IMG/VR virus record: IMGVR_UViG_3300029610_000240
Length of the DNA stretch: 64,000 bases
DNA from: a virus
Lineage: Duplodnaviria > Heunggongvirae > Uroviricota > Caudoviricetes
Direction: 5' to 3' (one strand)
Shown piece after piece: positions 7,056 through 25,247 of this stretch. The notes under the pieces were generated by a model, which was given only the letters and a program-made list of their open reading frames with translations, was not told where the DNA came from and searched no databases. Every line of letters begins with the position of its first letter. Positions within the stretch are counted from its first letter, which is position 1. The position numbers and the translations under genes are program-made.

Positions 7056-7493
7056 TTGCAAACAGCTACATACTTGTGCTATAATAAAAGTATGAAAAGA
7101 GAATATAAAGTTACAAAAACAACAACATCACTGATCAAGTATCATTTCGTTTTTTGCCCAAAGTATCGAAGAAAGATATTTCTGATCCATGGGGTAGAAG
7201 AACGAATGAAAGAATTGACAAAGGAACAGTGTGAAAAGGATCAGATCGAGATTCTTGAGATGAAATGTGATGTGGATCATGTATATTTATATGTAAGAGC
7301 ATATCCACAGACAACAATAACAAGGATCATGGGGAGCATCAGAGAGTACACATCAAAAATATTAAGAAAGGAATTTAAAGAACTATCAAAAATGAGTTCT
7401 CTTTGGACTAGATCTTATTTTGTTAGCACAGAAGATTTTATTAGTCTGGATACGATCAAATGGTATGTTGAGCAGCAAAAAACTAGAGGGTAA
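7056..7493 (+). CDS. tnpA: IS200/IS605-family Y1 transposase TnpA with a variant HUH motif
   Basis: YHFVFCPKYRRKIF, DHVYLYV (HUH reads H-V-Y) and C-terminal WYVEQQ Tyr helix. Likely true start is the Met at 7092. An 8-bp hairpin GTAGCTGT..ACAGCTAC at 7043..7069 lies just upstream. Confidence 0.85.
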   Translation: MQTATYLCYNKSMKREYKVTKTTTSLIKYHFVFCPKYRRKIFLIHGVEERMKELTKEQCEKDQIEILEMKCDVDHVYLYVRAYPQTTITRIMGSIREYTSKILRKEFKELSKMSSLWTRSYFVSTEDFISLDTIKWYVEQQKTRG

Positions 7494-12146: not shown

Positions 12147-12332
12147 GAAGGATGATTCCACAGTCTTTTGGCTGTGGGATTTTTGTATATCTTTAGAATT
12201 TTAGAATAATTTCATAAAATACGCATAAAATAAAAAATATGACACATATTGATAAAAAATATGATTTTTAGTATAATAAAGGAGTGTTATTTCGTGAATT
12301 ACGAATTTAAAATTTCAAGGGGGAAAGAGAAA

Positions 12333-13451
12333 ATGATAGTGATGGATGTTAAAATCAATAATTTTTATGCGTTTAAAGATTTTCATATGAACATGTCATA
12401 TCCAAAAAAAATAGTGAATTCATACATTCGAGATGAACATTTAAAAGAACGTCCGAATTTCAGATACAAAAAAGTAAATATCATAATGGGAGCAAATGCA
12501 ACAGGAAAGACATCGTTTGGTCAAATGTTGATGTCCGTATTTAACTTTATTCATAAAAAAGAGACTGCATATTTGATAAATCGTATTTGTGATGTGAAAA
12601 AAGAAGCAAATTTTTCGATAGATTTTGTCATGAATAGATTTACTTTATATTCTATGCAGATAATTATACATCCAGTGAACGACGATGATTATACGGAAAA
12701 CAATATAGAAGTAAAGATTGATAAGATAAAAATAAATAAAAATGATAGTTATGAAAGTTGCAAGAAGCGTATGGAAAGCAAAAATAACCTTTCAGAATAC
12801 ACAGCAAGTTATGTAGAGGAATTAGATAAGTTGAGCAGATTATCATGGCTGTTTGTTTCTCCAGAAAAAGAAGAAAAATTTAAATTTCCAAAAGGAGATT
12901 TTAAGAAAATTTATATTACAGTTTTAGAAAAGACATTAAAAGCATTAGATCCTTCCATAGAAAAAGTAGAAGAACTAAACGATATTGATGATTCTTATGT
13001 AATACGCATGAAATCAAAAAATGTGATTATTCAGGAAGGATCAATTGTAAATGAAAGTATTTTATCAAGTGGTACGAAAGCAGGACTTGAAATCGCTAGG
13101 ATCGTTGCTTCAATCCTGACAAATAGAAATCAGTTTTATTATTGTGACGAAAAATTTTCTTACGTGCATAGTGATATTGAAAAAGCTTTTCTATCAATCA
13201 TGATTGACAAGCTGGGGGAAAATGAACAGTTATTTTTCACAACGCATAACATGGATATTCTGGATTTAACATTGCCTAAACACTCATTCATATTTATGAA
13301 AAAAGATATTTATAATGAAAAGATGCCAATAAAATGTATCAGTGCAGACGAAATATTAAAAAGAAATACAGATTCTCTAAAATCAGCAGTTGAAAATGAT
13401 TTATTCTGTACCGCACCAAGTGTAGATTGCGTATATGATATCATTTCGTAA
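12333..13451 (+). CDS. AAA/ABC-type ATPase (AAA_21-like), candidate defence ATPase
   Basis: Walker A GANATGKTS and late FFTTHNMDILD motif. Start moved to the ATG at 12333, behind the RBS GGGGGAAAGAG. Confidence 0.7.
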   Translation: MIVMDVKINNFYAFKDFHMNMSYPKKIVNSYIRDEHLKERPNFRYKKVNIIMGANATGKTSFGQMLMSVFNFIHKKETAYLINRICDVKKEANFSIDFVMNRFTLYSMQIIIHPVNDDDYTENNIEVKIDKIKINKNDSYESCKKRMESKNNLSEYTASYVEELDKLSRLSWLFVSPEKEEKFKFPKGDFKKIYITVLEKTLKALDPSIEKVEELNDIDDSYVIRMKSKNVIIQEGSIVNESILSSGTKAGLEIARIVASILTNRNQFYYCDEKFSYVHSDIEKAFLSIMIDKLGENEQLFFTTHNMDILDLTLPKHSFIFMKKDIYNEKMPIKCISADEILKRNTDSLKSAVENDLFCTAPSVDCVYDIIS

Positions 13452-13465
13452 AAGGGGATAAAACA

Positions 13466-13969
13466 ATGGCTACAAAATATTATTTATATTATGTTGAAGG
13501 AGAAGATGAAAAGAAGGTTGTTGATACATTAAAAAAAGATATGAAGTTAATCAGACCTGGAGTTTCGCAAGTATTTAATGTTGTAGAAAATGAATTGACA
13601 AATGCTAGACTTATGACAATTAAGGAAAATACAACCGTTGTGCTGATTTTTGATACAGATACAGGAAATACAGAAAAAGTCAGGAAAAATATCGAGCTTC
13701 TAAAAAAAGCTAGAAATGTGAAAGAGATTGTATGTATTACACAAGTAAAAAATTTGGAAGATGAATGGGTTCGAAGCTGCGATGTGAAGAAACCTCAAGA
13801 ATTAACTGGAAGTGATTCCTTAACTAATTATAAAAGAGCATTAAGAAAAATCACAAATCTTGATAAAAAATTAAAAGAACATCATTTTGATTTTCAAAAG
13901 TTTTGGAAAAAATCAGATCCTGTGTATGAAGATATAAAAAATGAATCAGATAAAATTCGATTAAAATAA
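13466..13969 (+). CDS. small DUF4435/TOPRIM-like partner of the ATPase
   Basis: YYVEGEDEKKVV..VVLIFDTDTG acidic pattern as in DUF4435/OLD-type TOPRIM, recalled from memory. Tightly coupled to the upstream ATPase. Confidence 0.4.
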   Translation: MATKYYLYYVEGEDEKKVVDTLKKDMKLIRPGVSQVFNVVENELTNARLMTIKENTTVVLIFDTDTGNTEKVRKNIELLKKARNVKEIVCITQVKNLEDEWVRSCDVKKPQELTGSDSLTNYKRALRKITNLDKKLKEHHFDFQKFWKKSDPVYEDIKNESDKIRLK

Positions 13970-13978
13970 AGGAGTTTA

Positions 13979-15370
13979 TTGCTAATGTTGCGTACAATCG
14001 AAATGTGCACAAATGAATACAAAGATACAACACAAAAGGAAATCCGAAAGAAAAAAGGACAGTTTTTTACACCGGCAGAGGTTTCGATGAGAATGGCTGC
14101 TGTAGAAAATAAATATCCGAAGAATCAATTAATAAGGGTGTTAGATCCAGGAGCAGGAAACGGTATTTTATCTTTTGCCATGATTGATAAATTACTAAGA
14201 AGTGGGTATAAACGGCTTGATATTACACTGATTGAAACGGATACAGAGATTTTACCAGTCTTAGAATATACAATCACTAAAATTAGACAAATCTGTGAAT
14301 CATATCATGCAGAATGTACTATCCATTATATTGATCAAAATTTCGTGTTATGGGAATCCTCCTGTTTATATGATATCGTCATATGTAATCCTCCATATAT
14401 GAAAGTAAGAAAAGATTCTATCGAAGCAACGGCAATGAAGGCATATGTATATGGACAGCCTAACCTATATGGATTGTTTATGGCAAAAGCAGTAGAATTA
14501 TTGCGTGATAATGGACAGTACATTTTTATTACTCCCCGTTCGTGGACTTCTGGAAAATATTTTACGAAAGTACGGAGCTTCTTACAAAAAGAATTGAACA
14601 TAAAAGAAATCGACCTTTTTTCAAGTCGTGATGAAGTTTTTCAGGGAGAGAAAGTTCTTCAGGAGACAATGATCTTATATGGAGAAAAAGGACAGATTCA
14701 AAATGAGAAAATTAAAATTAATATTCTTAAAGACGGAACTTTAGATACAGGAAACAGTTTTTGGGCAGCAGCAGATCAGATTAAGTTTAAAGGATCAGAA
14801 CAATATCTGCTTTTACCAGAAAATGAAAATGATCTTAAAATTATAGATATAATGTCTGATATGACAGATTCTTTTGAGTCCAGTGGATATCACTTCAAAA
14901 CGGGACCAGTTGTAGAATTTCGAAATTTAGATCATATTCATAAAATATATCAAACTGGAGATATCCCAATGTATCGTTCGATACATATACAAAATGGAAC
15001 TCTGCAGTTTCCTGCCGATACTCAAAAAGCACAATATGTTAGTGCGGATGAAGAATCCTTGTTGATCCCAAAGCAAAATACTATTTTAGTTCGTCGGTTG
15101 AGTATGAAAGAAGATTTAAAACGTATTCAGGCTTGCAAATATTTTGCAGATGAAAATACAGACTTAAATACAGAATTTATGACTGTTGAAAATCATGTAA
15201 ATTATCTAACACGTAAAGATGGTATGGAAATGACCAGAAATGAAATAGATCAGCTGTTTGATATTTTAATGTCAGATATGTATGAACGTTATATCCGATT
15301 GATCAACGGAAGTACACAGATAAATGCGGGAGAACTTAATAAATTACCATTACAGAGGATTGAACGATGA
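13979..15370 (+). CDS. N6-adenine DNA methyltransferase (gamma class)
   Basis: GQFFTP, the AdoMet motif VLDPGAGNGIL and the catalytic NPPY (ICNPPYMKV). Confidence 0.85.
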   Translation: MLMLRTIEMCTNEYKDTTQKEIRKKKGQFFTPAEVSMRMAAVENKYPKNQLIRVLDPGAGNGILSFAMIDKLLRSGYKRLDITLIETDTEILPVLEYTITKIRQICESYHAECTIHYIDQNFVLWESSCLYDIVICNPPYMKVRKDSIEATAMKAYVYGQPNLYGLFMAKAVELLRDNGQYIFITPRSWTSGKYFTKVRSFLQKELNIKEIDLFSSRDEVFQGEKVLQETMILYGEKGQIQNEKIKINILKDGTLDTGNSFWAAADQIKFKGSEQYLLLPENENDLKIIDIMSDMTDSFESSGYHFKTGPVVEFRNLDHIHKIYQTGDIPMYRSIHIQNGTLQFPADTQKAQYVSADEESLLIPKQNTILVRRLSMKEDLKRIQACKYFADENTDLNTEFMTVENHVNYLTRKDGMEMTRNEIDQLFDILMSDMYERYIRLINGSTQINAGELNKLPLQRIER

Positions 15371-16359
15371 AAAGAAATGTAGAAAAATATGATTATCAGG
15401 TATTGAATGATGCAAAAAATATTCTTATGGAAATTGATATGCCAAAAGAACTTTATAATCCAAGGTGTGTTATGATATTTTGTGCATGTGCCCAGATGAT
15501 AGATGGAAAATCATGGAGGCATATATCAGAAGAATATATGAGTGTCCATGATATTATCAAATATGTAAATGATGTATTTCCTAATAAAGCAGGTTTGGAT
15601 AAAAAAGGATATCAGGAAAATAGCAGGGAAACATTTCGGGATGAAACTCTAAAACGTTGGGTAAGTGCAGCAATCATTGAATCTAAAGCAGGACTGGCAG
15701 CCAATGATAGAAACAATGGATATCGTTTTACTTCCGCTTTTGCCGCATTGGTAAGAACTTATGGAAGTGATCAGTGGGAAGATTCCCTGTCAGCATTTAT
15801 GGAAACTTATGAAAGCTATAGTAAAAAATTAAAACAAGTAAAATCCCTGCCGAAAGGATATGATGTGACTTGCGGAAATATTACAGTTAAATTAGGATTA
15901 TCCGCACATAATAAATTACAAAAACAGATTTTAGAAGAGTTTGTTCCCAATTTTGCATCTGGAGCAGAATTATTATATATAGGCGATACATCCGATCGTA
16001 CATTACAAAGAGATGACAAACGATTATCAGAATTAGGAATTAAAATCCTAGAAGATACTTCAAAACTTCCAGATATTATTTTATATGATTCTGATAAAAA
16101 TCGAATCATATATGTGGAAGCGTACTCCAGTACCGGAGAATTTAATAAGGATCGAGTCGATTATATTAATACATATTGCTCATATAAAAATGATATTGAA
16201 GTGGCATTTGTAACAGCATTTGCAACAACAAAAAAGATGCTTCAGGTTTATCCAAAGATTGCATGGGACACAGAGATCTGGATTGCCGAAGAAGCAACAC
16301 ATCTGACTCATAAAAACGGAGATAGATTTATGGGAAGGAATCCCGAAGAGTTTTTATAG
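15367..16359 (+). CDS. type II restriction endonuclease, BsuBI/PstI-like
   Basis: Overlaps the methyltransferase stop (ATGA). 330 aa with PD-(D/E)xK-like PDIILYDSDKNRIIYVEAYSS. Family assignment is from memory of PstI-type size and organisation. Confidence 0.55.
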   Translation: MKRNVEKYDYQVLNDAKNILMEIDMPKELYNPRCVMIFCACAQMIDGKSWRHISEEYMSVHDIIKYVNDVFPNKAGLDKKGYQENSRETFRDETLKRWVSAAIIESKAGLAANDRNNGYRFTSAFAALVRTYGSDQWEDSLSAFMETYESYSKKLKQVKSLPKGYDVTCGNITVKLGLSAHNKLQKQILEEFVPNFASGAELLYIGDTSDRTLQRDDKRLSELGIKILEDTSKLPDIILYDSDKNRIIYVEAYSSTGEFNKDRVDYINTYCSYKNDIEVAFVTAFATTKKMLQVYPKIAWDTEIWIAEEATHLTHKNGDRFMGRNPEEFL

Positions 16360-16410
16360 AAATACTTTGATTGGTATAGAATTCTTTTTGTGGTTGTGAT
16401 AATATAATAT

Positions 16411-16650
16411 GAAAGTTGTGTTTGCGAACGCAAGACACTGGCAACAAGGCAAAAAGTTGTAGTCCATACAGAGGACTTCCGAAATCTGTAACGTAATACA
16501 CATTTTTAGAATGTGTGATCCCGGTGACTGGGCGATAAGTCATAACCCATATGGAGGGTTTCCAAAATCCATAACTGAATAGCTCATCTACCATTTACTA
16601 GGAAGAAAGAGAAACCCTACCTGTGTTATTATATAGGTAGGGTTTGTTAT
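16411..16650 (+). ncRNA. candidate structured RNA of unknown class
   Basis: TATAAT at 16403..16408. Several local hairpins: GTGTTTGCG/CGCAAGACAC, AGTCC/GGACT, ACACAT/ATGTGT, ATGGA/TCCAT. Ends with an 11-bp terminator stem AAACCCTACCT/AGGTAGGGTTT at 16612..16645. No ORF. Confidence 0.3.
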
Positions 16651-16843
16651 AAATTTGTGGCGAAAACCCACACGCTTGCGTGTGGGATGAAAGCTACATT
16701 TCACTTGACATATACATAGATTAAATATATATATTAAAATACAGAAAGAAAACAGACCATGAGTAAGAGCAACTATGATATAAACACGCATACAACACAA
16801 AATAATGCTACACAATATCATTCAAGTCGTGGAGGAAAAAATA

Positions 16844-17023
16844 ATGGCACAAACTAAAAGTGACAATGTACAAATAAATATTTCTATTCCTACTGGATGG
16901 AAAACAGAACTTGAAAATCTTGCTCGTATCTATTCTGTTGAAGAAGGAAAAACCATCACTTTTCTTGACTTAATGCGTAGAGGTATTCAGGAAAAATATC
17001 AATTAGGAGAAAAAAGGCAGTGA
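16844..17023 (+). CDS. ribbon-helix-helix (CopG-like) small protein
   Basis: ATG at 16844 behind GGAGGAAAAAA. Beta-strand then two helices: VQINISIPTGWKTELENLARIYSVEEGKTITFLDLMRRGI. Confidence 0.5.
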   Translation: MAQTKSDNVQINISIPTGWKTELENLARIYSVEEGKTITFLDLMRRGIQEKYQLGEKRQ

Positions 17024-17433
17024 GTGAGGAACAATATCATAGTGCTTCACATTGTAAATATTTGATACAGTATCATATCATTTGGTGTCCCAAGTTCAGA
17101 TTTTCAGTATTACAAGGAAATGTCGATATCATTCTTAAACAGATATTACAGAAAATTTGTAATGATTATAAATACAAGATCAAAGCACTCGAAGTGATGC
17201 CAGATCATATACATATTTTCATAGATGTTCCGCAGACAGTTGCTCCTTGTGATGTTGTAAGAACTCTCAAAAGTATCAGTGCTATCGAATTATTTAAAGT
17301 ATTTCCAAAATTAAAACAGTTCTATGCGAAATGCGGAGTATTATGGCCAAGAGGATACTTTGTATCTACTGTCGGACATATAAGCGAAGCTACAGTAATT
17401 AAGTATATTGAGGAGCAGAAAAATGATAAGTGA
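17020..17433 (+). CDS. tnpA: IS200/IS605 Y1 transposase TnpA
   Basis: YHIIWCPKFR, intact HUH (PDHIHIFI) and the catalytic Tyr helix VIKYIEEQ. Confidence 0.9.
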   Translation: MSEEQYHSASHCKYLIQYHIIWCPKFRFSVLQGNVDIILKQILQKICNDYKYKIKALEVMPDHIHIFIDVPQTVAPCDVVRTLKSISAIELFKVFPKLKQFYAKCGVLWPRGYFVSTVGHISEATVIKYIEEQKNDK

Positions 17434-19036
17434 TAAAGAATATAAAAAACTTTTAAAACAATTTCATAAACTTTCTGACAGGCATATCTTGGTTGTAGAA
17501 ACCGATATGCCATCTTCTGATGTACAAAAGGTTGTGATTCTTTCTGATAAGATCAGAAAAGCAGGTAATGAGCTTGTTGGTCTTATGAGAAAGAATTATG
17601 ACCAACTTATGCGTACTAAAAAATATCGCAAGTTGCTAAAACTCTATGGTTCTACCAACGATAAAAAGAAACACAGAGATCTAGCAAATCAGCTCAATGA
17701 AATGCAAAAACAGTACAATGTCACATGGGATCATTGCAGAAACGCTATGATACATATAGGTAAGAAATATAGTATTGATGCCGTATTTGCCCTTACAAAA
17801 GCTGAAGATATATGGCGTGGTATTGAAAAATGTCTTTATAACAATGGTAAAACTATTCATTTTTCTAAATATGGTGAGTTGCCTTGTATCAGGGCAAAAC
17901 AGATAAATCGTGGCATTTCAATGTCTGTTAAAGATAATGAATTAAAATTCAAATTAAAGGGAAATGTATTTGGGATACAGGTTAAAGATAGATTTCAAAC
18001 AGATGAAGTTTGTGCGGTTTTAGAATATTTATCAAGATCAGAGATCATAAATGATAAAGCAATAAATAAATTTTTAGATAAAGCATACTGTATTGATACA
18101 TACAGACCTTGCTATGCTACTCTTGTACCTAAATTTATTCGTGGAAAATATAGGGTGTATTTGCATCTTACTATTGAAGGTAAGGCGAAACCTAAATATG
18201 ATAGGTTTGGTAATCCAAGACATAAGTTTGGCAAAGGTATTATAGGCGCAGATATTGGTACACAGACTGTTGCGTATACATCAAATACTGAGGTGGGCTT
18301 GAAAAATCTTTCAGAGCGTGGTAACAGTATTCAGACTTCTGAAAGAAGAGAACGTCTGCTTTACCGTGCGATGGACAGGTCAAGACGTGCAACTGATCCG
18401 CAAAACTATAATGATGATGGTACTGTTAAAAAAGGCCGCAAAACTTGGAAATATTCTAATCATTATAAAAAGCTAAAAGCTAAACACTCTGAACTATGTC
18501 GTATCAATGCTATAAACAGACAGCTTGCAATAAATGAAGACGCTAACCATTTAAGAAGTCTTGGAGATGTATTTATCACGGAACCTAAAAATGCAAGTAA
18601 ACTTATGAAACGAACTAAAGATACTACGGTCAATAGTAAAGGTAAGTTTCATAAGAAAAAGCGTTTTGGAAAATCCATAAAGAACAGATGTCCTTCTGGG
18701 TTTCAAACTACTGTAGAGCGGAAATTTAAGGTATCAGGTGGTATATATATTGAAGTACCTAATAATTACAGAGCAAGTCAATATGACCATACAGCAGATG
18801 ATTATATCAAGAAAAAGCTGTCTGATAGAATATATAAACTTACTGACGGAACATTGGTACAAAGAGATTGGTATTCATCATTCTTATTATACTGTTACGA
18901 TTACAGAACTAAAGATATAGATAAAAACAAATGTATTTCTGAATTTGATAAGTGTTACAACAAAGAAAAAGCTCTGATCGAATGGATCAAGGCTAACAAG
19001 ATCAAAATATTAAATAGCGGAATTAAGATATCGTAA
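17408..19036 (+). CDS. TnpB-like RuvC protein, 542 aa, without a recognisable Zn finger
   Basis: RuvC-like triad candidates: GADIGTQTVAY (D), FITEPKNASK (E), LVQRDWYSSF (D). No CxxC..CxxC between the last two. Confidence 0.6.
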   Translation: MRSRKMISDKEYKKLLKQFHKLSDRHILVVETDMPSSDVQKVVILSDKIRKAGNELVGLMRKNYDQLMRTKKYRKLLKLYGSTNDKKKHRDLANQLNEMQKQYNVTWDHCRNAMIHIGKKYSIDAVFALTKAEDIWRGIEKCLYNNGKTIHFSKYGELPCIRAKQINRGISMSVKDNELKFKLKGNVFGIQVKDRFQTDEVCAVLEYLSRSEIINDKAINKFLDKAYCIDTYRPCYATLVPKFIRGKYRVYLHLTIEGKAKPKYDRFGNPRHKFGKGIIGADIGTQTVAYTSNTEVGLKNLSERGNSIQTSERRERLLYRAMDRSRRATDPQNYNDDGTVKKGRKTWKYSNHYKKLKAKHSELCRINAINRQLAINEDANHLRSLGDVFITEPKNASKLMKRTKDTTVNSKGKFHKKKRFGKSIKNRCPSGFQTTVERKFKVSGGIYIEVPNNYRASQYDHTADDYIKKKLSDRIYKLTDGTLVQRDWYSSFLLYCYDYRTKDIDKNKCISEFDKCYNKEKALIEWIKANKIKILNSGIKIS

Positions 19037-19235
19037 AACATATTTAGGAAGATTGACTATACTTCCTTACGAAAGTAGAAATTTACCGTCAATGTGGTCG
19101 TTGGACTGCTTGGTAATGAAAGCTCTGATTCAAATAGACTTACACTTGTAACTCCAAAGTCTGAAAATGATGTACGATTACAAGCTACACTTGATAATCA
19201 GAACCCCACGGGCTTGCCCGTGGGAGTAGTCAGAT
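19037..19235 (+). ncRNA. putative omega/right-end RNA of the TnpB-like gene
   Basis: Non-coding 3' flank ending in the right-end hairpin. Position is as expected for TnpB guide RNAs; no direct evidence. Confidence 0.35.
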
Positions 19236-19460
19236 ATAAAATTATATTTATTGTTTTGAATAAAAAATAAATTTTTTATCAAGATACACAAATGATATAA
19301 TTTGTGCTATAATTTATATCATGAGTTGTTGTATCAAAAGGCAACTTTTTATTAGAAAATTGGATATAAGGACAGTTTATGTCAAGGAAATAGAGATATT
19401 CAGAGAAATATCTCTATTTTTTTATCATTTTTTGCTTTAGTGGAGAAAGGAGACGTGCAA

Positions 19461-19772
19461 ATGAAACAGTATATCGGAATAAAGGTTGTTGCTGCGAGAC
19501 CAATGACAAGAGGTGACTATAATATCTTTCGAGGATGGCAGATTCCGGCAGACGAAGATCCTGCCGATGAAGGATATGTGATGAAATACGAGAATGGACA
19601 TGTGCAATGGTTGCCAAAGGATATGTTTGAGTCTGACTATAAAGAATATGACGAGAGTACCCTGCCGGCAACAGCTATTGGTATGGTAAGTTCAGATTAC
19701 AAAGAATGTTTTCAGGCAGAGTACAAGCAGCTCAGAATTCGTTATGAAAAATTGAAGAGAATGCGTCAATAA
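19461..19772 (+). CDS. hypothetical small protein
   Basis: ATG at 19461 behind GGAGAAAGGAG. Its stop codon directly abuts the IscB element's left hairpin. Confidence 0.5.
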   Translation: MKQYIGIKVVAARPMTRGDYNIFRGWQIPADEDPADEGYVMKYENGHVQWLPKDMFESDYKEYDESTLPATAIGMVSSDYKECFQAEYKQLRIRYEKLKRMRQ

Positions 19773-20044
19773 CCCCGACCTACAGTAATAACTGTTGAGG
19801 TCGGAGCTTGTAAAAGCTCATATTGACTAGCCTAAGTTCTTCGAGAACTACGTTGTTTATGTTATCACACCTGCGAATGATACCATAGTTTGCAGCCTTG
19901 TGTAGGCTCTGTAAAAGTTCTGTGAGGTAGGAACGGTCAACCTAGTATGTTCGATCACGACAAGCATTTACAACATTGGCGAAGGGTAACAAACTTTCAA
20001 AAGAAAGGGACAGCACTTGAGAGTAGCTGTCAAAGGTAAAAACT
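19773..20044 (+). ncRNA. IscB omega-RNA region
   Basis: About 270 nt of non-coding, visibly GC-richer and hairpin-rich sequence immediately 5' of iscB, which is the known position of IscB omega-RNAs. Confidence 0.65.
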
Positions 20045-21319
20045 ATGAGAGTATTTGTATTCAATATGCGTGGCAGACCATTAATGCCATGCTCACAAAG
20101 AAAAGCCAGATTACTCCTAAGGGAAAATAAGGCTATGATTTATAAATATCATCCATTTACGATTCAGCTGACTTATACAACTGGAGAAACAAAGCAGGAC
20201 TGTCATATAGGTATAGACACAGGTTCTAAATATATAGGAGCTGCTGTCAGATCAGAGGATAAGGTTTTTTGGAAAGGCGAAATCGAGCTTCGACAGGATA
20301 TCAGGTCAAATCTTGATACGAAACGTATTTATCGCAGAAGCAGACGAAATCGTAAAACAAGATACCGAAAACCAAGGTTTTTAAATCGTAAGAGAAGAGA
20401 TGAATGGCTTCCACCTAGCTTGCAAAGCAGGATAAATCATACGTTTCATTGGATTGACACATTGAGTAGTTTGGTTCCAAACCCCATTCTTCACATAGAA
20501 GTCGGTAAGTTTGATGTAGCAAAGATGATAAATCCTGAAATCCATGGAGTTGACTATCAACATGGTCAGACATATGGTTTCTTCGATGAAAGGTATTTTG
20601 TTTTTGCAAGAGATAACTACACTTGTCAGTGCTGTGGAAAGTCAAAAAATAAGATTTTGAACACACATCATATCATCTACCGCAGTAATGGCGGAACAAA
20701 CAGAGTTGATAATCTTATTACAGTTTGCACAGATTGTCATACATCGCAGAATCACAGGAAAGGTGGAATATTCTATCAATGGCAGGAGCAGCATAAAAAG
20801 GTAAAACAATACAAAGAACCGCCGTTCATGAATACCTTACGTAAGAGGATATTTGTAGCGTATCCAGATGCTGAGATCACATATGGATCTGAAACAACAC
20901 CAAAACGTAAGGCGATGAAATTGGATAAGACGCACTATAATGATGCGATTGTCATTAGTGGTATCAATGAAATTAAAGAAAATCCTGAAGAATGGTTACT
21001 GATAAAACAATTCCGCAAAAAGAAACGCTCTTTACACGAGGCTACCGCCCGTAAGGGAAGAAAAAAGCCAAACAGAAATCAGACGCGTAACAGTAAGAAT
21101 ACGCCTTATTATAAAGGATTTTATCTTAACGATAAGGTTTCAGTTTTTGGAAAGAGTGGATATATTACAGGATTTACGAGCAATGCGGCATATATAAAAG
21201 ATGAGAACAATGACTATATTACTCTGCCAAACAAAACCTATAAACAGGTCAGCATCAATAAAATGAAGTTGGAATGTCATAACAACAATTGGCAGTACAT
21301 AATAAAAAATGCTGTGTAA
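20045..21319 (+). CDS. iscB: IscB RNA-guided nuclease (PLMP, split RuvC, HNH)
   Basis: PLMP motif (RGRPLMPC), RuvC-I IGIDTGSKYIGAAV, Arg-rich bridge RRSRRNRKTRYRKPRF, RuvC-II LHIEVGKFD, HNH CQCCGK..THHIIYRSNGGTNRVDNLITVCTDCH, RuvC-III HYNDAIV. Confidence 0.9.
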   Translation: MRVFVFNMRGRPLMPCSQRKARLLLRENKAMIYKYHPFTIQLTYTTGETKQDCHIGIDTGSKYIGAAVRSEDKVFWKGEIELRQDIRSNLDTKRIYRRSRRNRKTRYRKPRFLNRKRRDEWLPPSLQSRINHTFHWIDTLSSLVPNPILHIEVGKFDVAKMINPEIHGVDYQHGQTYGFFDERYFVFARDNYTCQCCGKSKNKILNTHHIIYRSNGGTNRVDNLITVCTDCHTSQNHRKGGIFYQWQEQHKKVKQYKEPPFMNTLRKRIFVAYPDAEITYGSETTPKRKAMKLDKTHYNDAIVISGINEIKENPEEWLLIKQFRKKKRSLHEATARKGRKKPNRNQTRNSKNTPYYKGFYLNDKVSVFGKSGYITGFTSNAAYIKDENNDYITLPNKTYKQVSINKMKLECHNNNWQYIIKNAV

Positions 21320-21404
21320 TCCGCAATTCATCCCACCACCTATAGAGGTGGGGGACTTCTTGCTCACGGCGTGTTAAATAATTTCCATGAAAGAGAGGTT
21401 TTTT

Positions 21405-21878
21405 ATGCAAAAAAGATATCAATACTGTATGTCAGGTATGTTTGCTGCGACAGATCAAAATTATTACGAAATTAACATCCCATCTCCGCATACATATGAG
21501 ACGGAAGAAGAAGCTATGGCAGATGGAGCTTTTGGATATCGTTTTGTTTTATTGCCTGGTGGTAAAGGACCACAAGTAGTTATATTTGAAGGATCTGGCT
21601 TTCGTCTGGTTTGTGATGGAAAAGAAAATTATATAAAAGACTGGGTTGAAGGAGATATTGTCGGAATATATGATTTCGATGAATTTACAAAAGCTGGTGG
21701 CTATATCCGCTTACTAAATCCAGAACTGGGAGACGATGTTTGTATTATTGAAGATTCAGACTTTTTGGACACAGATAAAACGTTTGCGGATATTTTCCCT
21801 AATATGGAACATCTAAAGCTGTATTATATCGATAATCTTGCATATTCCATTGATGAAATAACAGAAGGAGATAAATAA
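21405..21878 (+). CDS. hypothetical protein
   Basis: ATG at 21405 behind GAGAGG. No motif recognised. Confidence 0.5.
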   Translation: MQKRYQYCMSGMFAATDQNYYEINIPSPHTYETEEEAMADGAFGYRFVLLPGGKGPQVVIFEGSGFRLVCDGKENYIKDWVEGDIVGIYDFDEFTKAGGYIRLLNPELGDDVCIIEDSDFLDTDKTFADIFPNMEHLKLYYIDNLAYSIDEITEGDK

Positions 21879-22399
21879 TGGCAAAAACAGAAGAAACATT
21901 GATCATTGAAGATGTCTTATATCAAAACCTGTTTGGATCCAACCCATGCCTTGCAAGAGAGTATGGAACAAAGGAAGTTACCGTAACTCTTCTCAAGGAG
22001 AAAAAAGTAAAGGAAATCGTTGATTTTCTAAGCTATAACGCAAAAAAAGATGAATTTCGATGCTATGAGATTAAAGTCAGCATGGCCGATTTTAAGAGTA
22101 AGGCTGCCAAAACATGGATTGGAAATTATAATTATTTGGTTATTCCAAGAGAGTTATATTTAAAGCAATCCTTGTATGAATGGAAAGAACAGATTCCATA
22201 TTACGTGGGTATTATCGTTGTAAACGTAGAGCGTAGATCGAAATGGGTTGCTAAAAGACCTTCACCAATGGAAGTATCTGCAGGAATGAAGTTTATGTTA
22301 AGACAGAGTCTAATCAGAACTTTATTTTATCAAAATGATAAATTAAAAAAGAATAGTGCTGCTAAAATAGAGCAGATCTGTCAAGAGACAGAAAAGTAA
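21878..22399 (+). CDS. MmcB-like PD-(D/E)xK family protein
   Basis: EIVDFLSYN..FRCYEIKVSMADFKSK resembles the MmcB-family nuclease-fold core, recalled from memory. Confidence 0.4.
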   Translation: MAKTEETLIIEDVLYQNLFGSNPCLAREYGTKEVTVTLLKEKKVKEIVDFLSYNAKKDEFRCYEIKVSMADFKSKAAKTWIGNYNYLVIPRELYLKQSLYEWKEQIPYYVGIIVVNVERRSKWVAKRPSPMEVSAGMKFMLRQSLIRTLFYQNDKLKKNSAAKIEQICQETEK

Positions 22400-22434
22400 C
22401 TGTTAAGTATCAAATAAAGAAAGGAATTTAAATT

Positions 22435-23001
22435 ATGGAAAAAATCTTGAATTTACAGAGAGGATGGAAATCCAGACTATGGTTTGGAGAAAAAGCATTT
22501 GCATTATGTTTTGTGATATTTACAGCATTTACTGGTTTAGTAAGTGTTAATGCAGGACCTGGAGCCTTGTATGAATCTCATACATTTCGTACAATTTTAA
22601 ATGTCATGTTGACTGCTGCTGCATATGTAATCGCAATTGATCTTGTGTATAACATGATGTTTAATTTTTCCCAACGTTTTTATCAGTCAATCGTCATAGA
22701 AGAAGCAATCGCTATCATTCCATTTATCGTTGGATTGATTATTTTATATGTATTTTCCTGCGGAAAAACAGTGGCAGATTTAATGTATTTTAAGACATAT
22801 GAGCATTTATGGGTGACATTTGTAATTGCTGCATGTATGATTCATGTGGTTTGCAGCTTTGTATTTCGTATGATCCGAAAGGATTACTATAAAAAACATC
22901 CAGAAGAAGAACCACATTATGGCACCATGTATGTATATGATCTTAATAAAAGTAAGAATGATGAAGGAGGAGATGTAGATGAAAAAAGGGAAAGTGATTA
23001 G
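22435..23001 (+). CDS. multi-pass membrane protein
   Basis: Four or five hydrophobic helices and an acidic C-terminal tail. Confidence 0.55.
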   Translation: MEKILNLQRGWKSRLWFGEKAFALCFVIFTAFTGLVSVNAGPGALYESHTFRTILNVMLTAAAYVIAIDLVYNMMFNFSQRFYQSIVIEEAIAIIPFIVGLIILYVFSCGKTVADLMYFKTYEHLWVTFVIAACMIHVVCSFVFRMIRKDYYKKHPEEEPHYGTMYVYDLNKSKNDEGGDVDEKRESD

Positions 23002-23446
23002 AGTAGAAAATGATATTGTAACGATCGGGATGAACAATGGTTCCATTAAAGAAGTTCGAAGATGTGATCTTGGATTTGATCCTGTTCTTGGAGATTTGGT
23101 GGAAATTTTCGAGAATGAAGATCAGATCATTGTGACAAAGGCAAAAAAAGAGCCTGAGAATCACAACGATGCTGGAATCAATATTAACATGACAAACAGT
23201 ATTAACAATGCATCTGATGTGGCAGCAGGAAATGGAAAGAAAGTAGTGAATAAAGTAGCTTACTGCTTACTGGCACTTTTCCTTGGTGGTTTCGGTGCTC
23301 ATAAGTTTTACAGTGGAAAGACTGGGATGGGAATCCTCTATATTGTGTTTTGTTGGACAGCGATTCCAAGTTTTGTTGCATGGGTAGAATTGATCATTGC
23401 TGTATTTACCAAAAAAGCCGATGCAAACGGAAACATTGTTATGTGA
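22979..23446 (+). CDS. TM2-domain membrane protein
   Basis: AYCLLALFLGGFGAHKFYSGKTGMGILYIVFCWTAIPSFVAWVE is the TM2 domain signature. Confidence 0.7.
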   Translation: MKKGKVIRVENDIVTIGMNNGSIKEVRRCDLGFDPVLGDLVEIFENEDQIIVTKAKKEPENHNDAGININMTNSINNASDVAAGNGKKVVNKVAYCLLALFLGGFGAHKFYSGKTGMGILYIVFCWTAIPSFVAWVELIIAVFTKKADANGNIVM

Positions 23447-23600
23447 CATCCTCTCCCATCTATAGAGGTGGGAGCTTCCCTAACCTCGGCAGGTTTGGTT
23501 CTCGTTCGATAGCACCAATGTGCTAAGCTTAAGCGAGCTAACCCCGTGTGTCCCACGGTTGTATTATGTGAAATTGTGGTTATGCAGTTACTATCCGCAT
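23447..23600 (-). ncRNA. TnpB omega-RNA region
   Basis: Sequence overlapping and extending past the 3' end of tnpB, GC-richer than its surroundings, ending at the element-end hairpin. Confidence 0.55.
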
Positions 23601-24698
23601 TCCCTCATTTCTGATATTGATCGCTGCATTTACATCTCTGTCGTGATGGATTCCACACTGCGGACAATCCCACTGCCTGAGTGCAAGATCCTTTGTTTTC
23701 GCATTCTTGTAACCACAGGCAGAACACATCTGACTGCTTGCAAAAAATCTGTCCACTTTCACAAGTTTTTTCCCTTGTTCCTCAAGTTTATACTTTAGAA
23801 AGGCTGTGAACATTCCCCATCCATTATCCGAAACGGATTTTCCCAATTTCAACGACCGAGACATTGCTTTCATATCCAGATCCTCTATACATACACAATC
23901 ATAGGCATTGGTTATCTGTCTTGACTGCTTATGCAGAAAATCTTTTCGCTGATTGGAAACTTTTTCGTGAAGTTTGGCTACCTTGATTCTCTGTTTCCTG
24001 CGATTGTTCGAACCTTTCTGCATCTTGGAAAGTCTGCGTTGTTCTCTTGCTAATCTTTTCTCTGCGTTCCGGTAATATCCTGGATATGCCGGTTCATTGC
24101 CATTACTGTCACGATATAATCCGTGCATGGAAAAGTCCAGACCTAAAAAACTGTGCATCTCCTTTTCTGGTATCTGATCTTCATACTCAAAAAGGATACT
24201 TGCATAGTATCTTCCGCCTGGTGTCTGGCTGATCGTCACTGATTTCAACCTGTATCCCTTTGGAACAGATCTGTGCTGCTTTAATCGGACTTGTCCGATC
24301 TTTGGCAGTTTCAGATACCCATCCGATATGGTGATGTTGCCATTGATACATATGGTTGAATAGCTGTTTTTATGATTCTTTTTTGATTTGAACCTTGGAA
24401 ATCCTGTTTTCGGCCGTTTGAAAAAGTTCTGAAATGCTGTATCAAGGTGTCGGAGTGATTGCTGTAAGGATATACTATCGACTTCCCGCAAAAATGCGTA
24501 TTCTTCCGTTTTCTTCATTTCAGCCATTTCTTTCGCACAGACAGTATATGTTATATTTGTCTTGTTCTTCTTATACTGCCTGATCCTTCGATTAAGCCAA
24601 TGGTTGTACACCATTCTGACACAGCCGAAAGTCCTGGCAAACAGAATCATCTGCTCATTATTGGGATATATTCTGAATTTATATGCTCTGTTTGCCAT
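23580..24698 (-). CDS. tnpB: TnpB RNA-guided nuclease (IS605 OrfB type)
   Basis: N-terminal AYKFRIYPN..Q, RuvC D (GLDFSMHG), E (CIEDLDMK), Zn finger CSACGY..CPQCG, RuvC-III HDRDVNAAINI. Confidence 0.9.
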   Translation of the reverse strand: MANRAYKFRIYPNNEQMILFARTFGCVRMVYNHWLNRRIRQYKKNKTNITYTVCAKEMAEMKKTEEYAFLREVDSISLQQSLRHLDTAFQNFFKRPKTGFPRFKSKKNHKNSYSTICINGNITISDGYLKLPKIGQVRLKQHRSVPKGYRLKSVTISQTPGGRYYASILFEYEDQIPEKEMHSFLGLDFSMHGLYRDSNGNEPAYPGYYRNAEKRLAREQRRLSKMQKGSNNRRKQRIKVAKLHEKVSNQRKDFLHKQSRQITNAYDCVCIEDLDMKAMSRSLKLGKSVSDNGWGMFTAFLKYKLEEQGKKLVKVDRFFASSQMCSACGYKNAKTKDLALRQWDCPQCGIHHDRDVNAAINIRNEGMRIVTA

Positions 24699-25247
24699 GG
24701 TATCACTCCCTTAGTTTTCTGCTTGTGTTTTTGATCATTTTAACAATTTATTATATTTTATCATTTCTTTATTATTCTTTTAAATATATTATACTATGAT
24801 CAGAATACAATATCAAGTGCTTAACAGACGCAATTCATCTCTCACCTTAGAGGTCGGAGTCTTCTTGCTGGAAGAAGATAAAGTATAAGAATAAAAGCCC
24901 CAAAATCTTAACGGATAACGGGGCTTATTTTTTTGTTTAGAAGTTGGAATAAATTATAAATAATAATTTAAAATATGTAATATTCCCATATAATTATAAT
25001 GTTATTCTTGAAATATGTTCAAATAAAGCTAAAAAATATGGGAGCGTTACATATTTTTGCTTGTAATTTGTCAAGGTTATTGTATAATTAAATTATAACG
25101 AACGTTCGTACTAATTAATTTTGAAATGGAACAAAATGTGATTAGAAAGGTAACATTTTTACATGAATTTGGAAAAACAAAAAGAAAATTTCAAGAATCA
25201 TAGGGCAATATTTAAAGATCTTGGAAATAAGGAAGGAGTTGATTTTA

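What the first reader, a model, noticed from the sequence alone, without database searches (positions are those of the whole stretch)
16660..24880. Three OMEGA-type RNA-guided nuclease elements within 8 kb, next to the Cas9 island
A TnpB-like gene with tnpA (16.7-19.2 kb), an IscB with its 5' omega-RNA (19.8-21.4 kb) and a classic TnpB (23.4-24.9 kb, opposite strand) sit side by side. IscB and the classic TnpB have intact catalytic motifs. The window thus holds the Cas9 ancestor type (IscB), the Cas12 ancestor type (TnpB) and a Cas9 that has lost catalysis. This density is unusual and useful for comparing guide-RNA architectures in one host.
Basis: partly seen in the sequence, partly recalled or inferred. 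Interest (0 to 1): 0.55.

Follow-up and report, generated by a model that had tools for sequence, protein, structure and literature searches.

The report
Three clustered RNA-guided-nuclease insertion sequences
Three small selfish transposons, each carrying its own guide-RNA-directed DNA-cutting enzyme, inserted independently within 8 kb of an Anaerostipes hadrus (human gut) genome; the IscB and the standard TnpB are ordinary and already annotated, and the third enzyme is a very divergent TnpB without a zinc finger that databases still call 'hypothetical'.

Summary

- Element 1 (about 16652-19233, + strand) is an autonomous IS200/IS605 element. It has a small RHH-like ORF, a Y1 tnpA, and a 537-aa protein with no Pfam or NCBIfam hit. 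Profile and fold comparisons show that protein is a TnpB-fold RuvC nuclease with a canonical D-E-D triad and no zinc finger. A covariation-supported 3' RNA scaffold ends exactly at the right end.
- Element 2 (19765-21377) is a non-autonomous IscB element with a HEARO omega-RNA.
- Element 3 (23443-24877, - strand) is a non-autonomous canonical TnpB element.

Empty-site alleles and alternative contexts in other strains give scarless boundaries, and all three elements sit 3' of a TTAT-type motif. Elements 2 and 3 share end sequences with tnpB antisense to iscB, a published pattern. Element 1 has different hairpins.

The Cas9 is indeed catalytically dead (D10T, E762K, H840Y). Its gene lies 21 kb away, inside the same integrative island.

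I found no functional link between the elements. The cluster is best read as independent insertions that vary between strains. IscB and TnpB are already annotated in NCBI, so only the element 1 nuclease lineage adds anything modestly new.

The parts
16646..16651 (+). Element 1 target/TAM motif GTTAT(A), immediately 5' of the left end
   Evidence: Empty-site alleles L006 and L008 read ...GGGTTTGTTATATATAAAATT.... 42 of 49 family loci have GTTAT at the projected left junction, with unrelated sequence upstream.
16652..19233 (+). Element 1: autonomous IS200/IS605-type insertion sequence (2.58 kb; 1-nt 'A' ambiguity at the junction)
   Evidence: Absent, scarlessly, in L006 and L008. Present in other A. 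hadrus contigs at the same site.
16667..16686 (+). Element 1 left-end subterminal hairpin CCCACACG-CTTG-CGTGTGGG
   Evidence: Read from the sequence. Conserved with compensatory changes across family loci.
16844..17023 (+). Small conserved ORF (59 aa from the internal Met; the ORF opens at 16805), probably a ribbon-helix-helix DNA-binding protein
   Evidence: Present in 55 of 59 family loci that have tnpA, at 61-91% identity. Strand-helix-helix pattern; AF2 places helices at 20-33 and 40-54. Only weak, non-significant RHH hits: pRN1 ORF56 at E = 0.23 and pCXC100 ParB at E = 3.6. No Pfam hit.
17020..17433 (+). tnpA, Y1 (HUH) transposase of element 1
   Evidence: Pfam Y1_Tnp 6e-37; NCBIfam transpos_IS200 139 bits against a cutoff of 55.
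17423..19036 (+). Divergent TnpB-fold nuclease (537 aa) with RuvC D277/E387/D482 and no C4 zinc finger
19041..19233 (+). Predicted omega-RNA scaffold of element 1. Hairpin 1 is 19047-19066. A pseudoknot joins 19053-19060 with 19226-19233. The right-end hairpin is 19205-19224. The scaffold ends in GTAGTCAG.
   Evidence: Conserved in 65 loci, all ending in GTCAG and then diverging. 43 pairs are 96.4% paired, against 39-47% for slid controls; 25 pairs carry double changes; 0 of 500 shuffles reach the observed values. No Rfam family matches.
19234..19250 (+). Predicted guide segment of the element 1 omega-RNA (right-end flank)
   Evidence: Inferred from TnpB architecture. The flank is identical to the target half of the empty allele.
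19749..19764 (+). Predicted guide segment of the IscB omega-RNA (flank 5' of the scaffold)
   Evidence: Four different flanks abut the same GTCAATAACC scaffold start. Guide length is inferred from the published IscB architecture.
19765..21377 (+). Element 2: non-autonomous IscB (ISC) element. As a transposon it is inverted, with RE at 19765 and LE at 21377.
   Evidence: 99.9% identical over 19765-21382 in the unrelated context L005/L123. Its ends resemble those of element 3 (D1, D10, D11).
19765..19994 (+). IscB omega-RNA scaffold (Rfam HEARO)
   Evidence: RF02033, 112.4 bits against a gathering score of 83, E = 2e-22, full-length model.
20045..21319 (+). iscB (424 aa) with PLMP/RuvC/bridge helix/HNH and catalytic residues intact
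   Evidence: NCBIfam guided_IscB 3e-111; Pfam RRXRR 2.9e-61 and HNH 4.8e-10. Aligned to solved IscBs with IGIDTGS, HIEVGKFD, THH..N..H and KTHYNDA conserved.
21378..21382 (-). Element 2 TAM-like motif: ATTAT on the transposon's top strand, ATAAT 3' of the IscB target on the + strand
   Evidence: Window ATAAT versus L005 AAAAT directly after the shared ...GCGTGTTAA.
23427..23442 (-). Predicted guide segment of the element 3 omega-RNA (ATAACAATGTTTCCGT on the - strand)
   Evidence: The empty allele L008 reads TACTTTAT|ATAACAATGTTTCCG, which is TAM plus target.
23443..24877 (-). Element 3: non-autonomous canonical TnpB element (1435 bp)
   Evidence: Cleanly absent in L008, where window 23442 joins 24878 with no duplication.
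23443..23700 (-). Element 3 omega-RNA scaffold and right end. The hairpin is 23453-23474 and the scaffold ends ...GGATGTCAC. The 5' limit is approximate.
   Evidence: Conserved in relatives L098, L100, L101 and L102 with compensatory changes, diverging exactly after GTCAC. The fold z-score alone is weak at -1.9.
23580..24698 (-). tnpB (372 aa), canonical, with the D-E-D triad and C4 zinc finger intact
   Evidence: NCBIfam IS200_TnpB 2.6e-132 (441 bits against 425). Pfam HTH_OrfB_IS605, OrfB_IS605 and Cas12f1-like_TNB. 3e-83 to ISDra2 TnpB.
24788..24877 (-). Element 3 left end, with hairpin 24839-24859 and a promoter-like site TTGATA-17-TATAAT (24816-24788)
24878..24882 (-). Element 3 TAM, TTTAT on the - strand

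Best explanation
The region holds three separate insertion sequences of the IS200/IS605 superfamily. They inserted independently into the left part of an integrative, prophage-like island of Anaerostipes hadrus.

How each one works (mechanism taken from published work on this superfamily):
- A Y1 TnpA transposase recognises the subterminal hairpins. It excises one strand scarlessly and re-inserts it 3' of a short AT-rich motif, GTTAT/TTTAT/ATTAT here.
- The element-encoded nuclease, loaded with an omega-RNA whose scaffold is the element's end and whose guide is the adjacent flank, cuts the emptied donor joint (TAM plus target).
- Recombination with a sister copy then restores the element.

The three elements:
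- Element 1 is autonomous. It carries tnpA and a very divergent TnpB that has no zinc finger, together with a conserved small RHH-like protein and a pseudoknotted 3' omega-RNA.
- Elements 2 (IscB with a HEARO omega-RNA) and 3 (canonical TnpB) lack tnpA. They share related ends and must be mobilised in trans by a TnpA encoded outside this window.

The elements do not form a functional unit with each other or with the dead Cas9.

Shown here: gene and RNA identities, catalytic residues, exact boundaries, target motifs, presence/absence between strains, and RNA covariation. Inferred: expression, RNA-guided cleavage, current mobility, and the role of the RHH-like protein.
For: - Identities.
- Scarless empty sites containing exactly TAM plus guide-matching target, for element 1 (L006, L008) and element 3 (L008).
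- The same IscB element in unrelated contexts, with four different guide flanks.
- GTTAT at 42 of 49 left junctions of the element 1 family, and GTCAG at all 65 right ends followed by unrelated sequence.
- Covariation of the element 1 scaffold (96.4% paired against 39-47% slid; 25 pairs with double changes; 0 of 500 shuffles).
- Element 3 scaffold conserved with compensatory changes, ending at the empty-site boundary.
- Elements 2 and 3 share end sequences, with tnpB antisense to iscB. This matches Kapitonov 2016 (PMC4810608) and the G. stearothermophilus IS family mobilised by one TnpA (PMC10055086).
- Strain variation, with extra or decayed copies at this locus (L007, L008, L211, L015).
- Island context, including an integrase at 57770-59011.
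- Sibling loci in IMG/VR.
Against: - No expression or cleavage data exist here.
- The exact element 1 nuclease was seen at one genomic site only, in all ten contexts returned, so recent mobility in A. hadrus is not shown.
- No cognate tnpA for elements 2 and 3 lies in the window. The only other Y1 gene (7056-7493) has unrelated hairpins.
- No IscB-free allele was found.
- The element 1 nuclease lacks the zinc finger present in every biochemically characterised TnpB that I know of, so its activity is an extrapolation.
- TTAT density here is no higher than in the rest of the window, so the reason for the local clustering is unexplained.
Confidence: 0.85

Rival explanations
1. The element 1 protein is not a homing, RNA-guided nuclease. 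Together with the small RHH-like protein it would form a toxin-antitoxin-like or regulatory pair, as proposed for archaeal RHH/MazE-TnpB, or it would act as a transposition regulator. The conserved 3' region would then serve mainly as the DNA right end.
For: - The RHH-like ORF is more conserved than the nuclease and nearly always present.
- Altae-Tran 2023 proposes a toxin-antitoxin role for RHH-associated TnpBs (PMC10691335).
- The zinc finger is absent.
- No curated TnpB HMM recognises the protein.
Against: - The family is mobile and linked to tnpA, unlike the immobile archaeal clade.
- The D-E-D triad is invariant or nearly so.
- The 190-nt scaffold shows RNA-type covariation, including G-U intermediates and a pseudoknot far from the TnpA hairpin. 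DNA-end function alone does not require this.
- The boundary between scaffold and variable flank coincides with the transposon end, as in TnpB.
Confidence: 0.12
2. The cluster is a functional unit. The three OMEGA nucleases and the dead Cas9 with its dispersed guide genes would cooperate, for example as an island-encoded defence or regulatory module. In that case the proximity is selected and not accidental.
For: - All lie in or at the edge of one integrase-bounded island.
- The same arrangement recurs in many metagenomic contigs.
- One 19-kb IMG/VR contig carries both IscB and TnpB.
Against: - Each element is individually present or absent, or decayed, in otherwise identical loci (L006 and L008 lack element 1; L008 lacks element 3; L015 lacks IscB; L211 has fragments).
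- The identical IscB element also sits in an unrelated phage-like context (L005).
- The putative spacers of the sgRNA-like units have no seed match of 11 nt or more to the elements.
- Elements 1 and 2/3 use different end hairpins.
Confidence: 0.04
3. Elements 2 and 3, and perhaps element 1, are fixed relics in this strain. Their genes are intact but they no longer transpose, because no compatible TnpA is available. The nucleases would then persist only through past homing or neutral drift.
For: - No cognate tnpA lies in the window.
- The TnpB and the element 1 nuclease were each seen essentially at this one locus.
- Decayed copies exist in some strains (L211).
Against: - The ORFs, catalytic residues, end hairpins and a strong LE promoter are all intact.
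- Presence/absence between closely related strains is precise.
- The identical IscB element occurs at two or more different sites.
- The rest of the genome, where a helper tnpA could lie, was not available.
Confidence: 0.25

Closest known systems
ISDra2 / IS608-type IS200/IS605 elements (Y1 TnpA plus TnpB with a 3' omega/reRNA)
   Same: - Element 3's TnpB aligns end to end with ISDra2 TnpB (3e-83), with the D-E-D triad and both CxxC pairs.
- Insertion is scarless, 3' of a pentanucleotide TAM, and the omega-RNA scaffold ends at the RE.
- Element 1 has the same overall layout: LE hairpin, tnpA overlapping the nuclease gene, 3' scaffold, RE hairpin.
   Different: - Element 3 lacks tnpA.
- The element 1 nuclease is only 11-14% identical to solved TnpB/Cas12f structures. 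It is about 150 aa longer, has no zinc finger, uses GTTAT as TAM, and comes with an extra conserved small ORF.
G. stearothermophilus ISGst family (Meers et al. 2023, PMC10055086) and ISC / IS605B pairs (Kapitonov et al. 2016, PMC4810608)
   Same: IscB-only and TnpB-only elements in one genome have similar LE/RE, with TnpB encoded antisense relative to IscB. They share an AT-rich TAM and depend on a TnpA supplied in trans.
   Different: The helper TnpA was not identified here, and no excision or cleavage data exist for these elements.
OgeuIscB-type IscB with a HEARO omega-RNA
   Same: PLMP-RuvC-BH-HNH architecture with intact catalytic residues, and a full-length HEARO match directly upstream with a variable 5' guide flank.
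   Different: 25-40% protein identity to solved IscBs. The TAM-like motif here is A(T/A)AAT and has not been tested.
TnpB major clade RIIIr-4 and RHH/MazE-TnpB (Altae-Tran et al. 2023, PMC10691335)
   Same: No C4 zinc finger, an association with a small RHH-like protein, and relatives in phages.
   Different: - RIIIr-4 is defined by RuvC-III Asp->His. This family keeps the Asp (D482 aligns with D355 of the canonical TnpB).
- The RHH/MazE-TnpB group is archaeal and immobile, whereas this family is bacterial, tnpA-linked and mobile.
- Assignment to that nomenclature could not be checked because no supplements were held.
Cas12n / Cas12f miniature type V effectors
   Same: They are the best sequence-profile hit (RdCas12n 9j09, 6.7e-11) and the best fold hits (AsCas12f 2.5e-13) for the element 1 nuclease.
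   Different: There is no CRISPR array. The guide is supplied by a transposon-end omega-RNA, and the gene sits inside an IS with tnpA.

Membership tests
IS200/IS605 insertion sequence (element 1) | Y1 HUH transposase TnpA | tested here: met
   Pfam Y1_Tnp 6e-37; NCBIfam transpos_IS200 139 bits against a cutoff of 55.
IS200/IS605 insertion sequence (element 1) | Subterminal hairpins at both ends and no terminal inverted repeats | tested here: met
   Hairpins at 16667-16686 and 19205-19224, conserved with compensatory changes across loci.
IS200/IS605 insertion sequence (element 1) | Scarless insertion 3' of a specific short motif, without target-site duplication | tested here: met
   Empty alleles L006 and L008. 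GTTAT at 42 of 49 left junctions.
TnpB (OMEGA, Cas12 ancestor): the 537-aa protein of element 1 | Split RuvC domain with a D-E-D catalytic triad | tested here: met
   D277 and E387 are invariant and D482 is at least 90% conserved in 61 sequences. hhalign aligns them to D188, E272 and D355 of canonical TnpB at 98.1% probability.
TnpB (OMEGA, Cas12 ancestor): the 537-aa protein of element 1 | TnpB/Cas12f overall fold (WED, REC, RuvC) | tested here: met
   AF2 pLDDT 94.7. The top 36 Foldseek PDB hits are all TnpB, Cas12 or Fanzor, for example ISFba1 TnpB at 6.9e-13 with TM 0.70.
TnpB (OMEGA, Cas12 ancestor): the 537-aa protein of element 1 | C4 zinc finger between RuvC-II and RuvC-III | tested here: not met
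   ASQYDHTADD and KLTD-G occupy the positions of SSQMCSACGY and DCPQCG, with no Cys.
TnpB (OMEGA, Cas12 ancestor): the 537-aa protein of element 1 | Passes curated family HMMs (Pfam OrfB_IS605 / Cas12f1-like_TNB; NCBIfam guided_TnpB) | tested here: not met
   No hit for the window protein. Only 23 of 61 relatives give weak OrfB_IS605 hits, the best at 5.8e-6. PHROG phrog_506 'transposase' matches at 2.9e-15.
TnpB (OMEGA, Cas12 ancestor): the 537-aa protein of element 1 | Structured omega-RNA at the 3' end whose scaffold stops at the RE and is followed by a variable guide | tested here: met
   by covariation and boundary analysis. Expression was not tested.
TnpB (OMEGA, Cas12 ancestor): the 537-aa protein of element 1 | RNA-guided, TAM-dependent DNA cleavage | not testable with these tools
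   Needs plasmid interference or in vitro cleavage assays.
TnpB clade RIIIr-4 (Altae-Tran 2023) | RuvC-III catalytic Asp replaced by His | tested here: not met
   VQRDWYSS aligns with HDRDVNAA, so the Asp is retained. Definition taken from PMC10691335.
TnpB clade RIIIr-4 (Altae-Tran 2023) | Loss of the C4 zinc finger, and association with an RHH/MazE-like protein | tested here: inconclusive
   Zinc-finger loss is met. The small ORF is conserved, but its RHH fold has only non-significant support.
IscB (OMEGA, Cas9 ancestor): element 2 | PLMP, RuvC, bridge helix and HNH domains with catalytic residues | tested here: met
   NCBIfam guided_IscB equivalog, 371.5 bits against a cutoff of 175. Pfam RRXRR and HNH. 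Motifs conserved in the alignment to solved IscBs.
IscB (OMEGA, Cas9 ancestor): element 2 | HEARO-type omega-RNA directly upstream, with the guide 5' of the scaffold at the transposon boundary | tested here: met
   RF02033 at 112.4 bits against 83. Four independent flanks abut the scaffold start.
Canonical IS200/IS605 TnpB: element 3 | Curated TnpB model, D-E-D triad and C4 zinc finger | tested here: met
   NCBIfam IS200_TnpB 441.3 bits against 425. Full-length alignment to ISDra2 TnpB with all motifs.
Canonical IS200/IS605 TnpB: element 3 | Scarless insertion 3' of the TAM, with the scaffold ending at the RE | tested here: met
   Empty allele L008 reads TACTTTAT|ATAACAATG. Relatives diverge after GGATGTCAC.
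Catalytically active Cas9 (the Cas9 mentioned in the finding) | RuvC D10 and E762, and HNH H840 (SpCas9 numbering) | tested here: not met
   GITVS replaces GLDxG, FFKISREHQ replaces IxxEMARExQ, and DIDYIYPLS replaces DxDHIxPxS. Residues beyond about 950 were not inspected.

The most novel reading that the evidence does not exclude
The element 1 nuclease represents an uncharacterised, widespread lineage of TnpB. The representative search found 1904 clusters at 50% identity, mainly from gut Firmicutes, with distant relatives in Clostridium and Geobacillus phages and in Bacillus plasmids. In this reading the lineage works without the zinc finger and uses a pseudoknot-closed omega-RNA with a GTTAT TAM. 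It is also controlled by, or acts with, an obligatory RHH-like partner protein, making a three-protein IS200/IS605 architecture (RHH-like protein, TnpA, TnpB) with a regulatory layer not described for characterised TnpB elements.
Probability: 0.3. Interest if true: 0.5.

Novelty: new member of a known kind. Interest (0 to 1): 0.33.

Why it matters
For elements 2 and 3, very little. They are textbook OMEGA elements that PGAP already labels correctly, and their shared ends repeat a published pattern.

The locus is still a convenient natural comparison. One common human-gut species offers an IscB, a canonical TnpB and a divergent TnpB, each with defined ends, TAM-like motifs and natural empty-site targets, next to a naturally dead Cas9.

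The element 1 lineage is the useful part:
- It is abundant and invisible to Pfam and NCBIfam.
- It keeps a canonical RuvC triad without the zinc finger.
- It now has a covariation-supported guide-RNA scaffold model and a predicted TAM, so it is directly testable as a nuclease and as a case study of what the TnpB zinc finger is for.

Tried and rejected
- Single-sequence searches of the 537-aa protein against Pfam, NCBIfam and the PDB found nothing. Only family profiles and structure worked.
- The search for related loci with the 61-sequence alignment failed because no conserved stretch was available. A closer 16-sequence alignment worked.
- Mapping the lineage to the RIIIr-4 clade was rejected on the RuvC-III criterion. 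The paper's supplements were not available.
- The RHH assignment stays unproven.
- The search for an IscB-free allele in JGI metagenomes found nothing.
- An Rfam scan at E <= 1 over 16.3-25.3 kb found only HEARO, so no family exists for either TnpB scaffold.
- Folding energy alone is weak evidence for the element 3 scaffold (z = -1.9). The comparative evidence is better.
- Element 1's TnpA as helper for elements 2 and 3 is unlikely, because the hairpins differ. The second Y1 gene at 7.1 kb also has unrelated hairpins.
- A link between the dCas9 guides and the OMEGA elements was tested by seed matching and not found.
- The 923-aa members of the IscB 90% cluster are unrelated GH3-like glycosidases, which is a clustering artefact.
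- TTAT enrichment as an explanation for the clustering was rejected: 21.0 per kb here against 22.8 per kb in the whole window.

Full report
**Observation.** The ORF map and the profile searches confirm genes of the stated types at the stated places.
- A Y1 transposase lies at 17020-17433 (Pfam Y1_Tnp 6e-37; NCBIfam IS200 8e-41).
- An IscB lies at 20045-21319 (NCBIfam guided_IscB, 371 bits against a curated cutoff of 175; Pfam RRXRR and HNH).
- A canonical TnpB lies at 23580-24698 on the minus strand (NCBIfam IS200_TnpB, 441 bits against 425; three Pfam TnpB domains).
- Rfam places a full-length HEARO RNA, the IscB omega-RNA family, at 19765-19994, directly upstream of iscB (112 bits against 83).
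- The large ORF overlapping the end of tnpA (17408/17423-19036) matched nothing in Pfam, NCBIfam or PDB sequences on its own. It was therefore the one assignment that needed real work.

**The 537-aa protein is a divergent TnpB.**
- It belongs to a large family without annotation. The word-indexed search gave 1408 hits. The exhaustive search gave 1904 representative clusters at 50% identity, 361 of them below 1e-30.
- A 61-sequence alignment shows D277 and E387 invariant and D482 at least 90% conserved, within GxDIGTQT, E and QRDLYSAFLL motifs.
- A profile of that alignment hits RdCas12n (9j09; identified through PMC12216341) at 6.7e-11, an AI-designed TnpB-like nuclease at 1.4e-7, and ISDra2 TnpB at 6e-3.
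- 23 of the 61 members give weak OrfB_IS605 hits. PHROGs phrog_506 'transposase' matches at 2.9e-15.
- AlphaFold2 with this alignment gives pLDDT 94.7 and pTM 0.86. Foldseek against the PDB returns only TnpB, Cas12f, Cas12m, Cas12p or Fanzor structures at the top. Examples are AsCas12f at 2.5e-13 and ISFba1 TnpB at 6.9e-13 with TM 0.70, aligned over nearly the whole length at 11-14% identity.
- hhalign against an alignment of canonical TnpBs built from this window and IMG/VR relatives gives 98.1% probability and E = 1.2e-13. It pairs D277/E387/D482 with the RuvC-I/II/III residues D188/E272/D355. The four zinc-finger cysteines of TnpB are replaced by non-Cys residues: ASQYDHTADD for SSQMCSACGY and KLTD-G for DCPQCG.
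The protein has a canonical triad and no zinc finger.
- Distant relatives (30-37% identity) sit in phiCD211-like C. difficile phages, Geobacillus virus E3, C. botulinum phage c-st and many Bacillus and Clostridium plasmids. They are annotated as transposase, OrfB, or occasionally TnpB-family.

**Boundaries and target motifs.** Look-ups of the exact IscB and TnpB proteins returned sibling contigs that differ by presence or absence of individual elements. BLAST of the region against them, followed by direct reading, gives the element limits.
- Element 1 is 16652-19233. L006 and L008 join 16651 to 19234 scarlessly (...GTTTGTTATATATAAAATT...), with a 1-nt ambiguity.
- Element 3 is 23443-24877. L008 joins 23442 to 24878; on the minus strand this reads TACTTTAT|ATAACAATGTTTCCG.
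- Element 2 is shared at 99.9% identity over 19765-21382 with an unrelated phage-like context (L005/L123).
  - Four independent flanks all abut the same scaffold start, GTCAATAACC.
  - The far end stops at ...GCGTGTTAA, followed by ATAAT in the window and AAAAT in L005.
- For elements 1 and 3, the empty alleles contain exactly what each element's own guide would recognise, namely TAM plus flank.
- Across 49 loci of the element 1 family from GTDB genomes, 42 have GTTAT at the left junction with unrelated sequence upstream.
- All 65 usable right ends of that family finish in GTCAG and then diverge.

**Guide-RNA scaffolds.**
- Element 1: the roughly 190 nt between the stop codon and the right end are conserved down to loci whose proteins are only about 50% identical.
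  - RNAalifold on 22 diverse copies predicts 38 pairs, 23 of them with compensatory double changes.
  - With the first hairpin added as a pseudoknot, 43 pairs are 96.4% paired, against 39-47% when the partners are slid. 25 pairs carry double changes, against 7-10 for the slid controls, and 0 of 500 shuffles reach the observed values.
  - One helix pairs the loop of hairpin 1 (19053-19060, TTGACTAT) with the last 8 nt of the element (19226-19233, GTAGTCAG). It covaries A-U to G-C in nine sequences and closes the scaffold right at the guide junction.
  - No Rfam family matches this RNA.
- Element 3: relatives share the scaffold with compensatory changes (TAGCAC/GTGCTA, TAGTAC/GTACTA, TGACAC/GTGTCA) and diverge exactly after GGATGTCAC, the boundary defined by the empty site.
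  - Its folding z-score alone is weak.
  - The best promoter-like site of the whole region lies in its left end.

**Relations among the elements.** The sequence after the iscB stop codon (21322-21375) resembles both ends of element 3 read on the same strand (D1, D10, D11). As transposons, elements 2 and 3 therefore have the same orientation, and iscB is antisense to tnpB relative to LE and RE.
- This explains how IscB, with a 5' guide and a 3' TAM, and TnpB, with a 3' guide and a 5' TAM, can both target the same kind of donor joint.
- Kapitonov et al. 2016 described this pattern (PMC4810608). Meers et al. 2023 exploited it experimentally, showing that one TnpA mobilises related TnpB and IscB elements and that the transposase and the nucleases share an AT-rich TAM (PMC10055086).
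- Element 1 has different hairpins (CCCACRCG-CTTG-CGYGTGGG). Its TnpA is probably not the helper for elements 2 and 3.
- The only other Y1 gene in the window (7056-7493, 29% identical) also has unrelated hairpins.

**The small ORF.** A 59-aa product (16844-17023) is encoded upstream of tnpA in 55 of the 59 family loci that have tnpA. It is 61-91% identical across the family, which makes it more conserved than the nuclease.
- Its strand-helix-helix pattern and a single-sequence AF2 model (helices at 20-33 and 40-54, pLDDT 72.5) fit a ribbon-helix-helix protein.
- The two best database hints are both RHH proteins, but neither is significant: pRN1 ORF56 at E = 0.23 and pCXC100 ParB at E = 3.6.
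- Altae-Tran et al. 2023 describe a major TnpB clade, RIIIr-4, that lacks the zinc finger, includes RHH/MazE-associated members and has RuvC-III Asp->His (PMC10691335).
- This family matches the first feature and perhaps the second, but not the third. Unlike their archaeal RHH-TnpB group, it is mobile. I therefore do not file it there.

**Host and context.** All five key proteins exist as exact sequences in NCBI records of Anaerostipes hadrus.
- PGAP already names the IscB 'RNA-guided endonuclease IscB' and the TnpB 'IS200/IS605 family element RNA-guided endonuclease TnpB'. The 537-aa protein is called 'hypothetical protein' or 'Transposase'.
- Upstream lies a PstI-type R-M pair at 13979-16359.
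- Downstream lie PHROG-matching ORFs, an ImmA/IrrE-like protease, UvrD, a glucosaminidase and a tyrosine integrase at 57770-59011. IMG/VR holds the same IscB-TnpB segment.
- The region from about 19.3 to 59 kb therefore looks like an integrative, prophage-like island.
- The Cas9 (46127-50065) is inside that island, 21 kb from element 3.

**Is the density meaningful?** I could not count copies genome-wide.
- The locus varies between strains. Element 1 or element 3 is absent in some. Others have extra copies (a second TnpB and a DDE IS in L007; a second IscB in L008) or decayed copies (L211).
- TTAT density is no higher here than elsewhere in the window.
- The simplest reading is repeated independent insertion into a tolerant accessory region, not a functional module.
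- A direct test for dCas9-guide matches to the elements was negative.

**Verdict.** Elements 2 and 3 are already known. The element 1 nuclease lineage is a new, unannotated member of the TnpB kind, arguably a variant. It now has a defined scaffold, a predicted TAM and a conserved partner ORF, which justifies a modest interest score.

Noticed in passing
window 32817-56326 (eight units starting at 32817, 36299, 50281, 51138, 51469, 53988, 55601, 56267) and Cas9 at 46127-50065: Eight dispersed Rfam RAGATH-30 matches (65-79 bits against a gathering score of 59.5) look like tracrRNA tails (GUAAAAAUAAG... plus two hairpins). Each is preceded by repeat-like and anti-repeat-like segments. In six of the eight, an 11-32-nt copy of the repeat lies further upstream, about 66 nt in four units and 117-130 nt in two; 66 nt would fit a 36-nt repeat plus a 30-nt spacer. 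The units therefore resemble one-spacer mini-arrays, each fused to its own tracrRNA. They sit around a naturally dead Cas9 (D10T, E762K, H840Y), and the window has no conventional CRISPR array. This may be an RNA-guided regulatory system of the island. No paper in the library mentions RAGATH-30.
   Followed up: partly
window 7056-7493 (+): A fourth IS200/IS605-family gene: a tnpA-only, IS200-like Y1 transposase (145-aa ORF, 29% identical to element 1's TnpA, tblastn 3.8e-14). Its upstream hairpins are unrelated to those of elements 1-3.
   Followed up: partly
window 16405-16650 (+): The non-coding stretch between the R-M genes and element 1 folds unusually well (z = -3.4). It ends in a 15-bp terminator hairpin, directly before the GTTATA into which element 1 inserted. 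This is a candidate small RNA with no Rfam match.
   Followed up: partly
window 23444-23446 and 22979-23446: The stop codon of the TM2-domain gene is supplied by the right end of element 3. The gene ends ...GTT ATG TGA here and ...GTT ATA TAA in the empty allele, so the insertion changes the last residue (Ile to Met) but not the protein length.
   Followed up: yes
window 19320/19440-19772 (+): A phage-type ORF (phrog_872 4.6e-18; weak Pfam crAss001_48/Sequestin hit) ends with its stop codon inside the first bases of the IscB omega-RNA scaffold. It covers only positions 11-95 of the 172-position phrog_872 profile, so the IscB insertion may have truncated it. In sibling contigs it is called as 121, 150 or 168 aa.
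   Followed up: partly
L007 3711-5204 and 11369-12484; L008 12216-13275; L211 6624-9205: Sibling A. hadrus contigs carry further mobile elements at the same locus: a DDE_Tnp_1 IS, a second TnpB of 371 aa, and a second IscB with about 81% DNA identity. One contig has fragmented IscB and TnpB genes. This accessory region is a recurrent landing and decay site.
   Followed up: partly
window 12249-16359 (+): Defence-type genes lie immediately upstream of element 1: an AAA_21/AbiEii-like ATPase (weak hit), an Eco57I/N6-type methyltransferase, and a BsuBI/PstI-family restriction endonuclease.
   Followed up: no
protein cluster of the IscB (database, not the window): The 90%-identity cluster holding this IscB has a 923-aa representative and many 923-aa members that are unrelated glycosidase-like proteins (GH3-like by eye). 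This is a clustering artefact and not an IscB fusion.
   Followed up: yes
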